A stretch of 64,000 nt of DNA from Thermoplasmata archaeon. Its GTDB lineage: Archaea > Thermoplasmatota > Thermoplasmata > Lutacidiplasmatales > UBA184. Position 1 is the first letter of the stretch. Each line of letters opens with the position of its first letter. The stretch lies in NCBI GenBank assembly GCA_021821785.1, contig JAKACD010000005.1:484-64483 (forward strand). The letters run 5' to 3'. Below the pieces are notes generated by a model. The model was not told the origin of the DNA. It searched no databases and worked only from the letters and a program-made list of their open reading frames with translations. The position numbers and the translations under genes were made by a program. Positions 3,198 to 14,238 of this stretch are shown here, one piece after another.

Positions 3198-4808
3198 TCA
3201 ATCGTACCGGTACTGAGTGACGGCCCGGCGGTAGAGCGGCTTCCATATGACCTCATTGATGGTGATGACCGTCGCGACGAGCGTGAGCAGGGCGACCGCC
3301 ATCAATGCGTAGCCGCTCGACTGAAGTTGCTGGCCGATATCGATCAGCTGCCCGATCCCGAGCACGCTGAGCTGCTGGCCGTTCTCGAGGTTGAGGTACT
3401 CCGCGACGATGAGCGTGTTCCAGCCGCCCCCGAACGCGGTGATCGACCCGGTCACGAGCGCGGGGAAGATACCCGGTAAGAGCACCCGACGATAGAAGCT
3501 CCGCCCTTTGACCCCGTAGGCGTGGGCCGCCTCCACGAGGTCGGGGGGCAGCGCGCGCACTCCCGACAGTAGGTTGAAGAACAGGTACCAGAGCATCCCG
3601 GTCAGCAGCATGAGGACCGAGGCGCCATTCGGCGAAAGGTACGGCACGAGCCCGAAGATGATCACCGGGAAGAGCGCCGTGGCCGGGAACGACGCGACCA
3701 CCTCGATCACGGGCAGGCCGTAGCGGCTCGCCCGGGAGCTTCGCGCCGTGTGGATCGCGAGCGGCAGAGCGATCGCGAGACAGATCGCGTACGCCCCCAC
3801 GACCCGGAGGATCGAAGCTCCCATGGCCAGGGGGACGAGGGCGATCTCCTGACGGGGGTAGGCCTGGATCGGCGCCGTGAAGACGTCAAAGATCGCGACG
3901 ACCATCGTGATGAGCAATAGCCAGATGAGTACGAGCATCGCTCCGAGGGTCACGTAGTAGATGGCCGAGCGACGACGGGGGCTCGGCGTGCGTCCCGGAC
4001 GGACGGTGATCGCGGCGAGCTGGACGAACGGGGTACTGATCCGCGAGACCCCCGTACGGACCCCGCGGGTGACCAGGGTCGTCGCCCGGCGGAAGCGGCC
4101 GGCCTGAAACGGGGCCGCCCCGACCTCGCCGCCCTCGCCCGAGGGGCTCTGGTCGTAGCGGAACCGTTCCGCCCAGCGCCCGAGGGGTCTCCACACGAAG
4201 AAGTCGAGCAGCGCGATGACGAGGACCAGGAGCACGATCCCCGCGAGGAACTCGCTCAGGTTCCCGTGCTGGGCGGAGACGAGGAGGTAGCTCCCGATCC
4301 CCGGGAGCGTGAAGTTCGAGTTGGTCGTGCTGAAGATCTCGGCCTCGACGAGGAAGAACCAGCCCGCCGTCCAGGAAAGCACGGAGTTGTAGACGAGACG
4401 GTTGACCGTGGCGGGGAAGAGCACCCGTCGGAAGAGCAGGTAGCCCCGGAGGCCGAACGTGTCGGCCGCCTCCTTGAGGTCCCCGGGGAGCGTCTTCAGC
4501 GACTCGTAGACGCCGAAGACCATGTTCCAGGCCATCGAGGTGAAGATGAGGAACACCGACGCGAAGTTCGGTCCGAAGAAGCTACCGGGGGTCGCCTCGG
4601 CAAAGATCGCGATCGCGAACGGAAAGAACCCGAGGATTGGGATCGACTGGAGGATGTCCAGCACCGGGATCATCACGCGCTCGCCGCCCCGGTGTGTCGC
4701 TGCGTAGTAGCCGTACGCGAGCGAGAACGCGAGCGAGAGCGCGTACGCGGCGACCATCCGCAGGAACGAGAAGGTGACGTCGACGCTCGCGAGGGGGAGG
4801 AAGTCCAC
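3198..4808 (-). CDS. NitT/TauT family ABC permease with duplicated BPD_transp_1 domain; true start probably further upstream
   Basis: LDILQSIPILGFFP, two EAA loops (DLKEAADTFG, DLVEAAHAYG), GGGWNTLIVAEY; hydrophobic reading frame continues to about 4910. Confidence 0.88.
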   Translation of the reverse strand: MDFLPLASVDVTFSFLRMVAAYALSLAFSLAYGYYAATHRGGERVMIPVLDILQSIPILGFFPFAIAIFAEATPGSFFGPNFASVFLIFTSMAWNMVFGVYESLKTLPGDLKEAADTFGLRGYLLFRRVLFPATVNRLVYNSVLSWTAGWFFLVEAEIFSTTNSNFTLPGIGSYLLVSAQHGNLSEFLAGIVLLVLVIALLDFFVWRPLGRWAERFRYDQSPSGEGGEVGAAPFQAGRFRRATTLVTRGVRTGVSRISTPFVQLAAITVRPGRTPSPRRRSAIYYVTLGAMLVLIWLLLITMVVAIFDVFTAPIQAYPRQEIALVPLAMGASILRVVGAYAICLAIALPLAIHTARSSRASRYGLPVIEVVASFPATALFPVIIFGLVPYLSPNGASVLMLLTGMLWYLFFNLLSGVRALPPDLVEAAHAYGVKGRSFYRRVLLPGIFPALVTGSITAFGGGWNTLIVAEYLNLENGQQLSVLGIGQLIDIGQQLQSSGYALMAVALLTLVATVITINEVIWKPLYRRAVTQYRYD

Positions 4809-5170
4809 GAACCCTCCGAGCGACGAGCCAAGTGAGGCGGCGTAGGCCGCTGCGGCGACCGGGACCGCGAGGTAGATCGCCGCCGACCGCCAGGCGGGGG
4901 GGAACTTCAGGGGGGACCGGACCCGATGCGCGTCGCCCGCGGCCTCCTCGCTCCGGGGGTCAGTGACCCCCGTCGTCGCTCCCGGACCCTCGACCCGGCG
5001 GACCGTAACTCCCCCTCGCCATGCGTTCGGTCGGGCATGGACCGGGGTGCGACGGCGCTGGCATATTTGTGGAGTATGGTGGAATCGGGCGCTCCCTCAG
5101 CCAGAGGAGGCCCGCGCCGCCGCTCCGCCCGCGGCAACGTTTATCAACGGCCCGACGCTGGCCGACGCGT

Positions 5171-5277
5171 AGCCCCGTAGTGTAGTGGCCAATCATGCGA
5201 GACTCTGGATCTCGCGACGCAGGTTCGAACGCCGCGGGTACACGCGGATCCCACGGCCGGAACTCCTGCCGGGGCTA
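5171..5277 (+). tRNA. tRNA-Gln (anticodon CTG) with 34-nt BHB intron in the T-loop (59/60), intron 5230-5263
   Basis: AGCCCCG/CGGGGCT acceptor stem; anticodon arm CGAGA-CTCTGGA-TCTCG; removing 5230-5263 restores GCAGG-TTCGAAT-CCTGC. Confidence 0.92.
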
Positions 5278-5304
5278 CTTTCTGCGACCTCTCCCTCTCA
5301 TCGT

Positions 5305-5449
5305 GCGGGGGTGCTCCAGCTCGGCCAAACCGTTCTCCGAGAACGGGGCCACCGAGGCAGGGCTTAGGACCCTGTTGCCTAGGGCATGCGCCGGTTCAAA
5401 GGGCCGATCGGCGGTCGCCGCCGACGGCCGGGAACTCCGGCCCCCCGCA
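5305..5449 (+). tRNA. tRNA-Leu (anticodon TAG) with two BHB introns: D-arm 21/22 (5329-5352) and T-loop 59/60 (5401-5435)
   Basis: GCGGGGG/CCCCCGC acceptor stem; CAGGG-CTTAGGA-CCCTG anticodon arm; long variable arm; splicing restores D-stem CTC/GAG and GCCGG-TTCAAAT-CCGGC. Confidence 0.9.
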
Positions 5450-5479
5450 CCTGGCTAGTCCTCCCCAGGTCCTTCGAAG

Positions 5480-6385
5480 ATGCACGCGACCGAGGTCCTG
5501 ACGCCCGAGGAGATCCTCGCCCTGGACCCAGAAGGGGCCGACCGTCTGCTCGATGCCCTCGAGCGAACGGTACCGGTACGGTCGCCGCTCCTTCCGATCC
5601 CGTCCCGCCCGAACGCCGAGCTTCTCGTCTTCGGGGATACCCACGGGGACTGGCGTTCGACCCTCGCCGCGGTCGAGATGGCCTCCGCTCCCGGGACCGA
5701 GCGATGGCTGCTCGGCTTGGGCGATTATGTTGACCGGGCTCCGGACGACCTCCCGAACGGCTCGGTTGCGAACGCGCTGCATCTTCTCTCCCTCGCGGCG
5801 CGCTATCCGGAGCGGGTCTACCTGCTCCAAGGGAATCACGAGACCTCCCGCCGGATTCCTTGCTATCCGCACAATTTGCCGGAGGAGGTCGACGACCTCT
5901 GGGGGCCCGAGGCCGAACGGTACCACCGCCTGGTCGGGCTACTCGAGCGGGGTGCGTACGCAGCCGTGACCGAAAGCGGCGCCTACCTCGCCCACGCGGG
6001 GTTTCCCCGCACCCTGCCGTCCGGATCCTGGCGGTCGGCTTTCGAGGCGATGGATGACGACCGCCTTTCCGAGATCGTCTGGGCCGAGTGCGACGCCTCC
6101 CGCATCCGTCGCGGCGCCGCCCCGTCCTGGGGGGCGCAGGCGCTCTCGGAGTTCCTTGGGGTGACCGGCCTCGGGGTCGTCCTTCGAGGTCACGACCCGG
6201 ACGTGGTCGGCCGCCCGCTCTACGACGGGCGGTGCCTCACGCTTCACACGACCCGGATCTACGAACGCTACGGAGGGGTCATTGTGGCGGTAGTCCCACT
6301 CGGCCGTCGGCTCGAGAGCGTGAACGATCTCCGGATCGAGCATCTGCTGACGGAAGGGCGGTCGTACACGGACGACCGGGACTGA
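5480..6385 (+). CDS. PPP-family serine/threonine protein phosphatase (metallophosphoesterase)
   Basis: GDTHGD, LGDYVDR, QGNHE, AHAG and RGHD motifs. Confidence 0.88.
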   Translation: MHATEVLTPEEILALDPEGADRLLDALERTVPVRSPLLPIPSRPNAELLVFGDTHGDWRSTLAAVEMASAPGTERWLLGLGDYVDRAPDDLPNGSVANALHLLSLAARYPERVYLLQGNHETSRRIPCYPHNLPEEVDDLWGPEAERYHRLVGLLERGAYAAVTESGAYLAHAGFPRTLPSGSWRSAFEAMDDDRLSEIVWAECDASRIRRGAAPSWGAQALSEFLGVTGLGVVLRGHDPDVVGRPLYDGRCLTLHTTRIYERYGGVIVAVVPLGRRLESVNDLRIEHLLTEGRSYTDDRD

Positions 6386-14155: not shown

Positions 14156-14238
14156 GCCGGGGTGGCCGAGCGGCCAAAGGCGGCAGACTCAAGATCTGCT
14201 CTCGCAGGAGTTCCCAGGTTCGAATCCTGGCCCCGGCA
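14156..14238 (+). tRNA. tRNA-Leu (anticodon CAA), no intron
   Basis: GCCGGGG/CCCCGGC acceptor stem, GCAGA-CTCAAGA-TCTGC, long variable arm, CCAGG-TTCGAAT-CCTGG. Confidence 0.96.

What the first reader, a model, noticed from the sequence alone, without database searches (positions are those of the whole stretch)
5305..5449. tRNA-Leu(UAG) broken by two non-canonical BHB introns (D-arm 21/22 and T-loop 59/60)
Seen in sequence: intron 1 (5329-5352) forms a strict BHB with outer helix CTC/GAG, central helix GGCC/GGCC, bulges AAA and ACC, and inner helix CCGTTCT/AGAACGG. Intron 2 (5401-5435) forms a relaxed BHB with central helix TTCA/GGGA (one A.G mismatch), bulges AAG and ACT, and inner helix GGCCG/CGGCC. 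Cutting after the second base of each bulge gives a normal Leu cloverleaf. Established: multi-intron tRNAs with introns outside 37/38 are typical of Thermoproteales and some DPANN archaea, which have broad-specificity (alpha-beta)2 or epsilon2 splicing endonucleases, and are rare in euryarchaeal-type lineages. Inference: this Thermoplasmata-like host has an expanded tRNA-intron system and probably a relaxed-specificity EndA. Default tRNA finders may miss this gene.
Basis: partly seen in the sequence, partly recalled or inferred. Interest (0 to 1): 0.88.

Follow-up and report, generated by a model that had tools for sequence, protein, structure and literature searches.

The report
Two-intron leucine tRNA gene
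This is a real leucine tRNA gene broken by two short introns in unusual places, in a soil and mine-water archaeon where over a third of tRNA genes found are broken this way, although its cutting enzyme is a type reported to handle only standard introns.

Summary
Window 5305-5449 encodes pre-tRNA-Leu(UAG) with a 24-nt intron at D-loop 21/22 (strict BHB) and a 35-nt intron at T-loop 59/60 (BHB with one A.G mismatch in the central helix). ARAGORN and Rfam miss the gene unspliced. Removing both introns gives tRNA-Leu(tag); removing only one gives nothing.

In 19 same-genus genomes the locus has the same layout. Exons are 98.7% identical, introns 55-63%, and the intron helices keep pairing through compensatory changes. 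No intron-less copy was found.

Genome-wide, 15 of 41 tRNA species found carry non-canonical introns: 11 T-loop only, 3 D-loop only, and Leu(UAG) with both.

The host is a 70% GC Thermoplasmata, close to Lutacidiplasmatales. It has one EndA gene, of the alpha'2 type. Its catalytic unit is collinear with M. jannaschii EndA and has no specificity loop. So the intron system is expanded, but the predicted (alpha-beta)2 or epsilon2 enzyme is not there. No splicing evidence at RNA level was obtained.

The parts
5140..5147 (+). TATA-like box (TTTATCAA) about 28 nt before the 5' end of tRNA-Gln; probable promoter of a Gln-Leu transcript
   Evidence: Read from the sequence. The same word stands before the Gln exon in two relatives' contigs (loose ends). 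The promoter role is inferred.
5171..5229 (+). tRNA-Gln(CUG) exon 1 (positions 1-59)
   Evidence: Rfam tRNA hit below cut-off, 24.9 bits. Spliced form is called tRNA-Gln(ctg). Nearly invariant in 20 of 20 sequences.
5230..5263 (+). tRNA-Gln(CUG) T-loop intron at 59/60, 34 nt, strict BHB
   Evidence: Central helix 4 of 4, inner helix 4 bp, outer helix 5 bp. Variable in sequence among 20 sequences.
5264..5277 (+). tRNA-Gln(CUG) exon 2 (positions 60-73)
   Evidence: 20 of 20 sequences give Gln(ctg) after the intron columns are removed.
5278..5304 (+). Spacer between the two tRNA genes, with no A/T-rich box
   Evidence: For 5279-5304, mean pairwise identity among 20 sequences is 39.7%.
5305..5328 (+). 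tRNA-Leu(UAG) exon 1 (positions 1-21)
   Evidence: Only one variable column (C/U at D-loop position 16, which still pairs with G in the BHB outer helix).
5329..5352 (+). Intron 1, 24 nt, D-loop 21/22, strict hBHBh' motif
   Evidence: RNAalifold predicts this BHB on its own. 4 of the 5 inner-helix pairs counted show changes on both sides.
5353..5400 (+). tRNA-Leu(UAG) exon 2 (positions 22-59: D-stem 3' strand, anticodon arm with UAG, variable arm, T-stem 5' strand, T-loop 54-59)
5401..5435 (+). Intron 2, 35 nt, T-loop 59/60, BHB with an A57.G mismatch in the central helix
   Evidence: The A.G mismatch is present in 20 of 20 sequences. The central helix is not predicted by RNAalifold.
5436..5449 (+). 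tRNA-Leu(UAG) exon 3 (positions 60-73), followed by CC at 5450-5451

Best explanation
Window 5305-5449 is the only gene for tRNA-Leu(UAG) in this genome, and it is functional. It is probably transcribed together with the upstream tRNA-Gln(CUG) from a TATA-like box at 5140-5147.

The precursor folds so that each intron-exon boundary forms a bulge-helix-bulge motif. Intron 1 uses D-loop bases 16-17a, paired with 23-25, as a temporary outer helix. Intron 2 uses the T stem as its outer helix, so the T loop copies the geometry of an anticodon-loop intron (54-57 stand for 32-35, and 59/60 for 37/38).

The single alpha'2 EndA homodimer cuts after the second base of each 3-nt bulge. RtcB joins the three exons into an 86-nt class II tRNA. 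The D stem then forms in place of the temporary helix.

Shown here: the motifs, the cloverleaf after removal, selection on exons and on intron pairing, and the presence of EndA and RtcB genes.

Inferred: transcription, cleavage, ligation, and which enzyme does the cutting.
For: - ARAGORN calls tRNA-Leu(tag) only when both introns are removed. The same holds for 20 of 20 aligned sequences, the window plus 19 same-genus genomes.
- 21 of 24 same-genus genomes hold the full locus.
- Exons are 98.7% identical pairwise, with 4 of 86 columns variable. Intron 1 is 54.5% identical, intron 2 62.8%, and the spacer 39.7%.
- On the named structure 94.3% of cells pair. 9 pairs have changes on both sides, all in the intron inner helices. 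0 of 500 shuffles reach the covariation score, and partners slid by one column pair in 53.5-56.5% of cells.
- RNAalifold predicts BHB 1 exactly.
- No second Leu(UAG): ARAGORN, Rfam at E<=1 and BLAST of the spliced form find none. No genus genome has a second match to exon 2.
- EndA is one gene. RtcB is present, E 7e-173.
- 14 further tRNA species in the genome have the same kinds of intron.
Against: - There is no RNA evidence. The four metatranscriptome runs laid gave two contigs. These cover only Gln exon 1 and run on into a relative's intron and upstream DNA, so they show no splice.
- The central helix of BHB 2 has one invariant A.G mismatch and was not predicted by RNAalifold.
- The literature read says alpha'2 enzymes are narrow in specificity (PMC5829648 and PMC6379350, passages read).
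- The assembly is 91% complete, so a copy in the missing part is not excluded for this genome alone.
- ARAGORN is permissive: most hits of my intron-removal scans were false.
- tRNAscan-SE was not available.
Confidence: 0.88

Rival explanations
1. The gene is real and spliced, but the plain alpha'2 EndA alone does not cut intron 2 or the other relaxed motifs of this genome. It needs a helper protein, prior removal of intron 1, the folded mature domain, or a different nuclease.
For: - BHB 2 has an invariant A.G mismatch next to the 5' bulge.
- The A. fulgidus alpha'2 enzyme cut a D-loop HBh' intron poorly in vitro (PMC5829648, passages read).
- It removed a BHL intron only in a full-length precursor (PMC6379350, passage read).
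- No specificity loop is present in this EndA.
Against: - Only one locus with EndA domains was found at E<=10.
- The T stem (5 bp) and inner helix (at least 5 bp) flank the weak central helix and should hold the two bulges in register.
- 5 of 12 T-loop introns in the genome have a perfect 4-bp central helix.
Confidence: 0.07
2. The locus is a decaying tRNA pseudogene with two insertions, and it is not spliced.
For: Standard finders do not call it. No RNA evidence of splicing was obtained.
Against: - Exons are nearly invariant across 20 sequences while the introns and spacer diverge.
- Compensatory changes keep the intron helices paired.
- No other Leu(UAG) gene was found in this genome or in the genus genomes searched.
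- 14 other tRNA species, among them the only initiator tRNA found, have the same kind of interruption.
Confidence: 0.03
3. The inserts are scars of mobile elements that integrated into the tRNA gene, not introns.
For: tRNA genes are common integration sites (general knowledge, recalled). In relative G038 a Gln(CUG) 5' part is followed by about 110 nt and an imperfect 3' part.
Against: - The inserts are 24 and 35 nt and fold into hairpins.
- They carry no repeated tRNA 3' part.
- They sit exactly where removal restores the cloverleaf, and they keep BHB geometry in 20 of 20 sequences.
Confidence: 0.02

Closest known systems
Methanopyrus kandleri pre-tRNA-Glu(UUC): D-loop 20b/21 intron plus a canonical intron (PMC5829648, passages read)
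   Same: A euryarchaeal-type host, a multi-intron tRNA, one intron in the D loop next to position 21, and an EndA without a specificity loop.
   Different: There the D-loop motif is a relaxed HBh', the enzyme is (alpha-beta)2, and it is the only non-canonical intron reported for that genome. Here the D-loop motif of Leu(UAG) is a strict hBHBh', the second intron lies at 59/60 and not at 37/38, the enzyme is alpha'2, and 15 of 41 tRNA species found are affected.
ARMAN-2 (Ca. [quoted passage not shown]
   Same: A T-loop 59/60 intron position, two introns in one tRNA, and many interrupted tRNA genes in the genome.
   Different: ARMAN-2 has the three-unit epsilon2 EndA with the ASL loop. This genome has a two-unit alpha'2 EndA without any insert. 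The ARMAN Cys motif is hBH (BHL); here both bulges are formed.
Multi-intron tRNAs of Thermoproteales (described in PMC8450103, passages read; the original surveys are recalled, not read)
   Same: BHB introns at several non-canonical positions, up to several per gene, and more non-canonical than canonical introns in the genome.
   Different: Those hosts have (alpha-beta)2 EndA with the crenarchaeal loop, and their intron positions are widely scattered. Here 12 of 16 non-canonical introns sit at one position (59/60) and the other 4 in the D loop.

Membership tests
Archaeal EndA-dependent BHB tRNA intron | Two 3-nt bulges on opposite strands, separated by a 4-bp helix and flanked by an outer and an inner helix (hBHBh') | tested here: met
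   Intron 1 has all elements, and 20 of 20 sequences pair at all 7 outer and central positions. Intron 2 has bulges, outer helix and inner helix, but its central helix is 3 of 4 with an invariant A.G, so intron 2 meets the motif in relaxed form only.
Archaeal EndA-dependent BHB tRNA intron | Cutting in the bulges and joining the exons restores a standard cloverleaf | tested here: met
   ARAGORN calls tRNA-Leu(tag) on the doubly spliced form only. 20 of 20 sequences do the same.
Archaeal EndA-dependent BHB tRNA intron | The host encodes the splicing endonuclease and the RtcB ligase | tested here: met
   EndA at G000:C98 matches PF01974 (two stretches) and PF02778 (two stretches). RtcB at G000:C62 matches PF01139 with E 7e-173.
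Archaeal EndA-dependent BHB tRNA intron | The spliced RNA and the excised or circular intron are observed | tested here: inconclusive
   Four metatranscriptome runs were laid. Two contigs cover only Gln exon 1 and continue into an intron, and none covers the Leu gene.
Intron-rich tRNA sets coupled to a broad-specificity EndA ((alpha-beta)2, epsilon2, or alpha4 with the L3 loop) | EndA of (alpha-beta)2 or epsilon2 subunit architecture | tested here: not met
   There is a single 364-aa ORF with two N-terminal and two catalytic domains, which is alpha'2. No second locus was found at E<=10.
Intron-rich tRNA sets coupled to a broad-specificity EndA ((alpha-beta)2, epsilon2, or alpha4 with the L3 loop) | A specific loop insert (L1/CSL, L2/ASL or L3) in the catalytic unit | tested here: not met
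   The catalytic unit aligns to M. jannaschii EndA 4-171 end to end, with one 1-residue and one 2-residue gap. The alignment to A. pernix alpha starts only at its residue 47; my recall, not a call, places the CSL with its conserved lysine just before that point. The protein is collinear with 9 of 10 other Thermoplasmata EndAs.
Intron-rich tRNA sets coupled to a broad-specificity EndA ((alpha-beta)2, epsilon2, or alpha4 with the L3 loop) | Many tRNA genes with introns outside 37/38, some with several | tested here: met
   15 of 41 tRNA species found carry 16 non-canonical introns, and 3 carry a canonical intron only.
tRNA pseudogene | Relaxed selection on the exon sequence, and a functional copy elsewhere | tested here: not met
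   Exons are 98.7% identical against 40-63% for introns and spacer. No other copy was found.

The most novel reading that the evidence does not exclude
A whole order-level branch of soil and mine-water Thermoplasmata keeps a third or more of its tRNA genes interrupted at T-loop 59/60 and in the D loop, and splices them with an ordinary-looking alpha'2 EndA that has none of the known specificity loops.

Some of these motifs are relaxed:
- The only initiator tRNA found has a D-loop intron with no outer helix beside its 3' bulge. This holds in 22 of 24 genus genomes (one copy cut by a contig end) and in one genome of another order.
- 7 of 12 T-loop introns have mismatches in the central helix.
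- AT-rich relatives carry 10-14 nt mini-introns with no inner helix.

If so, broad substrate use either evolved here by an unknown route or does not need the loops at all. That would break the published rule that only (alpha-beta)2 and epsilon2 enzymes cut non-canonical introns.
Probability: 0.45. Interest if true: 0.75.

Novelty: new member of a known kind. Interest (0 to 1): 0.6.

Why it matters
tRNA introns outside 37/38, and several per gene, are tied in the literature to hosts whose splicing endonuclease carries a specificity loop (PMC5829648 and PMC6379350, passages read). This gene and its genome do not fit that pairing. They combine an intron-rich tRNA set with a loop-less alpha'2 enzyme, in a Thermoplasmata lineage found in soil, peat and mine drainage.

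The case gives a natural test of what sets EndA substrate range. One recombinant enzyme can be tried on a few natural substrates that run from strict (Leu intron 1, Gln) to relaxed (Leu intron 2, initiator tRNA).

It also has a practical side. ARAGORN and Rfam miss these genes, so tRNA counts for such genomes come out too low. Only 24 strong Rfam hits were found here, against 41 species found by hand. That can be misread as incompleteness.

Tried and rejected
- **RNA evidence.** The look-up of sequencing runs listed 6 RNA runs with small shares. Four were laid. Two gave nothing. Two gave one contig each, over Gln exon 1 only, running on into a relative's intron and into upstream DNA. This shows neither splicing nor its absence. 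The Leu gene had no cover.
- **ARAGORN with long introns allowed.** It gave 79 predictions, many with introns of hundreds to thousands of bases. I treated these as noise and did not count them.
- **BHB-guided single removal and double removal.** Single removal gave 163 hits and double removal 72, and most were false. A 'Leu(tag)' hit on C24 lacks a T loop and lies in 437-438 aa open frames, so I rejected it. A double-intron 'Ser(gct)' hit on C39 was rejected likewise. Trp on C24, Ser(cga) on C76, Arg(tcg) on C70 and Ala(cgc) on C36 were judged by eye not to be tRNAs.
- **Missing tRNAs.** Glu(CUC), Ile(GAU), Ile2(CAU), Lys(UUU) and Thr(UGU) were not found, also not by BLAST with isoacceptors. 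They may lie in the missing 9% of the genome or be more heavily broken.
- **Pro(CGG) on C26.** ARAGORN calls it, but it has an odd T loop and no Rfam hit. I counted it as probable.
- **A lineage-specific EndA insert.** None was found in the catalytic unit. The only large inserts are in G039 (between the units) and G031 (C-terminal), both genomes with about 41 strong tRNA hits.
- **Relatedness of the T-loop introns to one another.** I did not test this. Introns change too fast within the genus (55-63% identity) for it to be informative.
- **Literature.** Searches found no paper that reports non-canonical tRNA introns in Thermoplasmata. The Lutacidiplasmatales paper PMC9287336 has 0 occurrences of 'intron'. 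The Asgard preprint 10.64898/2026.10.13.758758 has 0 occurrences of my five terms. Tables there (tRNAscan-SE 2.0 Table S7, the data behind Figure 7 of PMC5829648, the Supplementary Data of PMC9287336) could list such introns, and I could not see them.

Full report
**What is there.** ARAGORN on the window finds only tRNA-Ala(cgc) at 895-966 and tRNA-Leu(caa) at 14156-14238. Rfam at gathering score finds the same two. At E<=10 on 5250-5500, Rfam gives two chance matches and no tRNA. I built four test sequences by coordinates in a script. With both 5329-5352 and 5401-5435 removed, ARAGORN calls an 86-nt class II tRNA-Leu(tag). With only one of them removed, or neither, it calls nothing.

**The two motifs.** Intron 1 has a 3-bp outer helix (5320-5322 with 5354-5356) and a 4-bp central helix (5323-5326 with 5347-5350). 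It has two 3-nt bulges and a 7-bp inner helix. This is a strict hBHBh' motif. Its outer helix uses D-loop bases that are single-stranded in the mature tRNA, so the D stem must form after splicing. Intron 2 uses the T stem as outer helix. T-loop bases 54-57 form the 5' strand of the central helix (U-A, U-G, C-G, A.G), and 58-59 plus the first intron base form the 5' bulge. It has a 5-bp inner helix followed by a 7-bp hairpin. The layout is the same as that of an anticodon-loop intron, moved to the T arm. The minimum-energy fold of the precursor is -82.5 kcal/mol (z = -2.8). Its centroid shows BHB 1 whole and BHB 2 in part.

**Is it more than chance?** I scanned both strands of the genome for BHB-like geometry, which gave 686,329 loose candidates. 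I removed them singly and in 638,905 pairs and ran ARAGORN on each product. Of the 72 double-removal hits, two loci passed a cloverleaf filter. One is this locus. The other is a false hit in coding-like sequence. The same geometry recovers the canonical Leu(UAA) intron of this genome, which serves as an internal control of the cut rule.

**Conservation.**
- The window is G000:C75:484-64483. The genome has 1.69 Mb in 99 contigs, 70% GC, and is 91% complete.
- A DNA search with 5150-5480 found the full locus in 21 of 24 same-genus genomes. G009 had no match, G004 a piece at a contig end, and G014 only a Gln-like piece.
- I aligned the window with the 19 genomes for which loci were returned (alignment A1).
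- Exons are 98.7% identical pairwise, with 4 of 86 columns variable. Intron 1 is 54.5% identical, intron 2 62.8%, and the spacer 39.7%.
- On the structure I named, 94.3% of cells pair. 9 pairs have changes on both sides, all in the inner helices of the two introns. 0 of 500 shuffles reach the covariation score. Sliding the partners by one column drops pairing to 53.5-56.5%. The sequences are related, so the shuffle count is not a probability.
- RNAalifold predicts BHB 1 exactly. For intron 2 it predicts the T stem and inner helix but not the weak central helix.
- Removing the intron columns gives tRNA-Leu(tag) in 20 of 20 sequences.
- One of the 19 loci (L016) is from G019, which is flagged unpublished. 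The result is the same without it.

**No spare copy.** ARAGORN, Rfam at E<=1 and BLAST of the spliced form find no other Leu(UAG) gene in the assembly. In the genus genomes, exon 2 matches only at this locus. A pseudogene reading is therefore unlikely.

- tRNA-Gln(CUG) lies 26 nt upstream, at 5171-5277. It has a 34-nt intron at 59/60 (5230-5263) with a perfect BHB: central helix 4 of 4, inner helix 4 bp, outer helix 5 bp.
- It is conserved in the same 20 sequences, and 20 of 20 splice to Gln(ctg).
- A TATA-like word at 5140-5147 stands about 28 nt before its 5' end. No such box stands before Leu, so one Gln-Leu transcript is likely. This is inference from the sequence.
- The pair sits between an ABC-transporter permease gene (3198-4808, minus strand) and a metallophosphoesterase gene (5480-6385, plus strand).

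**Genome-wide picture.** Rfam finds only 27 tRNAs over its cut-off in this genome. I combined ARAGORN, the weak Rfam hits and a T-loop scan that does not use the BHB motif (7,719 candidate deletions). I added a scan for intact T arm plus acceptor pairing (39 candidates) and inspection by eye. This gave 41 tRNA species:
- 23 are without intron. One of these, Pro(CGG), is only probable.
- 3 have a canonical intron only: Tyr(GUA), Leu(UAA), Trp(CCA).
- 11 have one 59/60 intron of 29-35 nt: Asp(GUC), Ala(GGC), Arg(UCU), Arg(UCG), Gly(UCC), Ser(GGA), Ser(GCU), Ser(CGA), Gln(CUG), His(GUG), Asn(GUU).
- 3 have a D-loop intron: initiator Met, Arg(GCG), Pro(UGG).
- Leu(UAG) has both kinds.
- Five species were not found.

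Among the 12 T-loop introns the central helix is 4 of 4 in five, 3 of 4 in six and 2 of 4 in one, Asn (for the eleven single-intron genes; for Leu). In the six 3-of-4 cases the mismatch is always at A57.

The initiator tRNA intron has a 4-bp central helix and a good inner helix, but no helix next to its 3' bulge, so it is HBh'-like. It is present in the 22 of 24 genus genomes that gave a match (one copy is cut by a contig end). It is also present in G032, of another order. It is absent from the six genomes of families f2 and f3.

**Spread among relatives.**
- Leu(UAG) is intron-less in four f2 genomes of the same order and in G031, G032 and G039 of other orders.
- In the two AT-rich f3 genomes it has only a 10-13 nt insert at 59/60. 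That insert has a perfect central helix and no inner helix.
- Gln(CUG) in f3 has a canonical intron plus a 13-14 nt insert at 59/60. In the three f2 genomes fetched it has a long intron at the canonical position.
- Strong Rfam tRNA hits number 20-28 in genus genomes at least 88% complete and 23-31 in f2 and f3. They number 37-42 in five genomes of other orders, but 24-25 in G032, G038 and G040. This count is a proxy only.

**The enzyme.**
- One locus holds EndA domains: G000:C98, a 364-aa ORF. Pfam finds two N-terminal and two catalytic domains, which is the alpha'2 type.
- The catalytic unit aligns to M. jannaschii EndA residues 4-171 with one 1-residue and one 2-residue gap. It aligns to A. 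fulgidus EndA without any insert on our side.
- Ten other Thermoplasmata genomes each have one homologue. Nine are collinear with ours, whether their Rfam tRNA count is high or low. G039 carries a large insert between the units and G031 a 10-residue C-terminal insert.
- RtcB is present.
- The papers read state that only (alpha-beta)2 and epsilon2 enzymes cut non-canonical, relaxed introns, by means of inserted loops, and that alpha'2 enzymes are narrow (PMC5829648, abstract, passages and section 16; PMC6379350, passages; PMC3239211, passages).
- For the Leu gene this causes little conflict. Intron 1 is strict, and archaeal enzymes recognise the motif wherever it lies. Intron 2 departs from the strict form by one mismatch. 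For the initiator tRNA the conflict is sharper.

**Host.** 79 of the 80 listed EndA-relative records are titled Thermoplasmata, Thermoplasmatales or Lutacidiplasmatales archaeon. Among them are UBA184 (75% identity) and one Candidatus Lutacidiplasmatales MAG (70%). That paper does not contain the word 'intron'. I did not place the genome on a tree.

**Verdict.** The lineage has an expanded, conserved set of T-loop and D-loop introns that I could not find described in print. The predicted enzyme type is wrong. Splicing itself remains inferred.

Noticed in passing
window 5171-5277: tRNA-Gln(CUG) with a 34-nt strict-BHB intron at T-loop 59/60 (5230-5263), 26 nt upstream of the Leu gene. ARAGORN misses it and Rfam scores it below cut-off (24.9 bits). 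It is conserved in 20 of 20 aligned sequences.
   Followed up: yes
window 5140-5147: A TATA-like word about 28 nt before the Gln 5' end. There is none before Leu, which suggests one Gln-Leu transcript. The same word appears in two relatives' contigs.
   Followed up: partly
G000:C36:39371-39473 (minus strand); L140, L143-L172: The only initiator tRNA-Met found has a 28-nt D-loop intron (about 20a/21). It has a 4-bp central helix but no outer helix beside the 3' bulge. The same is seen in the 22 of 24 genus genomes that gave a match (one copy cut by a contig end) and in G032 of another order. The gene is intron-less in families f2 and f3.
   Followed up: partly
G000 contigs C23, C31, C33, C36, C39, C44, C53, C56, C92, C97: Ten further tRNA species with a single 29-33 nt intron at 59/60 (Gln is the eleventh), and two more (Arg GCG, Pro UGG) with similar D-loop introns at the same site. 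In all, 15 of 41 tRNA species found are interrupted outside 37/38.
   Followed up: partly
L105, L106, L113, L119, L133, L134 (G026, G028): AT-rich relatives of the same order carry 10-14 nt mini-inserts at 59/60, with a perfect central helix and no inner helix, in Leu(UAG), Leu(UAA) and Gln(CUG). By eye, G026 Leu(UAA) looks interrupted at three places.
   Followed up: partly
L135, L136 (G038:C8:70910-71355): An intact Gln(CUG) gene next to a copy whose T-loop 5' half is followed by about 110 nt and an imperfect 3' end. This may be an integration scar.
   Followed up: no
G000:C70:68233-68392: tRNA-Trp(CCA) with an 87-nt canonical intron that holds C/D-box-like words. Archaeal Trp introns are known, from recall, to encode a guide RNA.
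   Followed up: no
G000:C26:19143-19219 (minus strand): A probable tRNA-Pro(CGG) whose T loop reads UCCAAAU, with C at position 55. ARAGORN calls it; the Rfam search does not list it.
   Followed up: partly
G000 whole genome: tRNA species for Glu(CUC), Ile(GAU), Ile2(CAU), Lys(UUU) and Thr(UGU) were not found by any scan. They may be in the unassembled part or more heavily broken.
   Followed up: partly
G025-G040: Strong Rfam tRNA hits are low (24-25) in three genomes of other orders of the class (G032, G038, G040), as in this order. Five others have 37-42. Hidden tRNA genes may be wider spread in Thermoplasmata.
   Followed up: no
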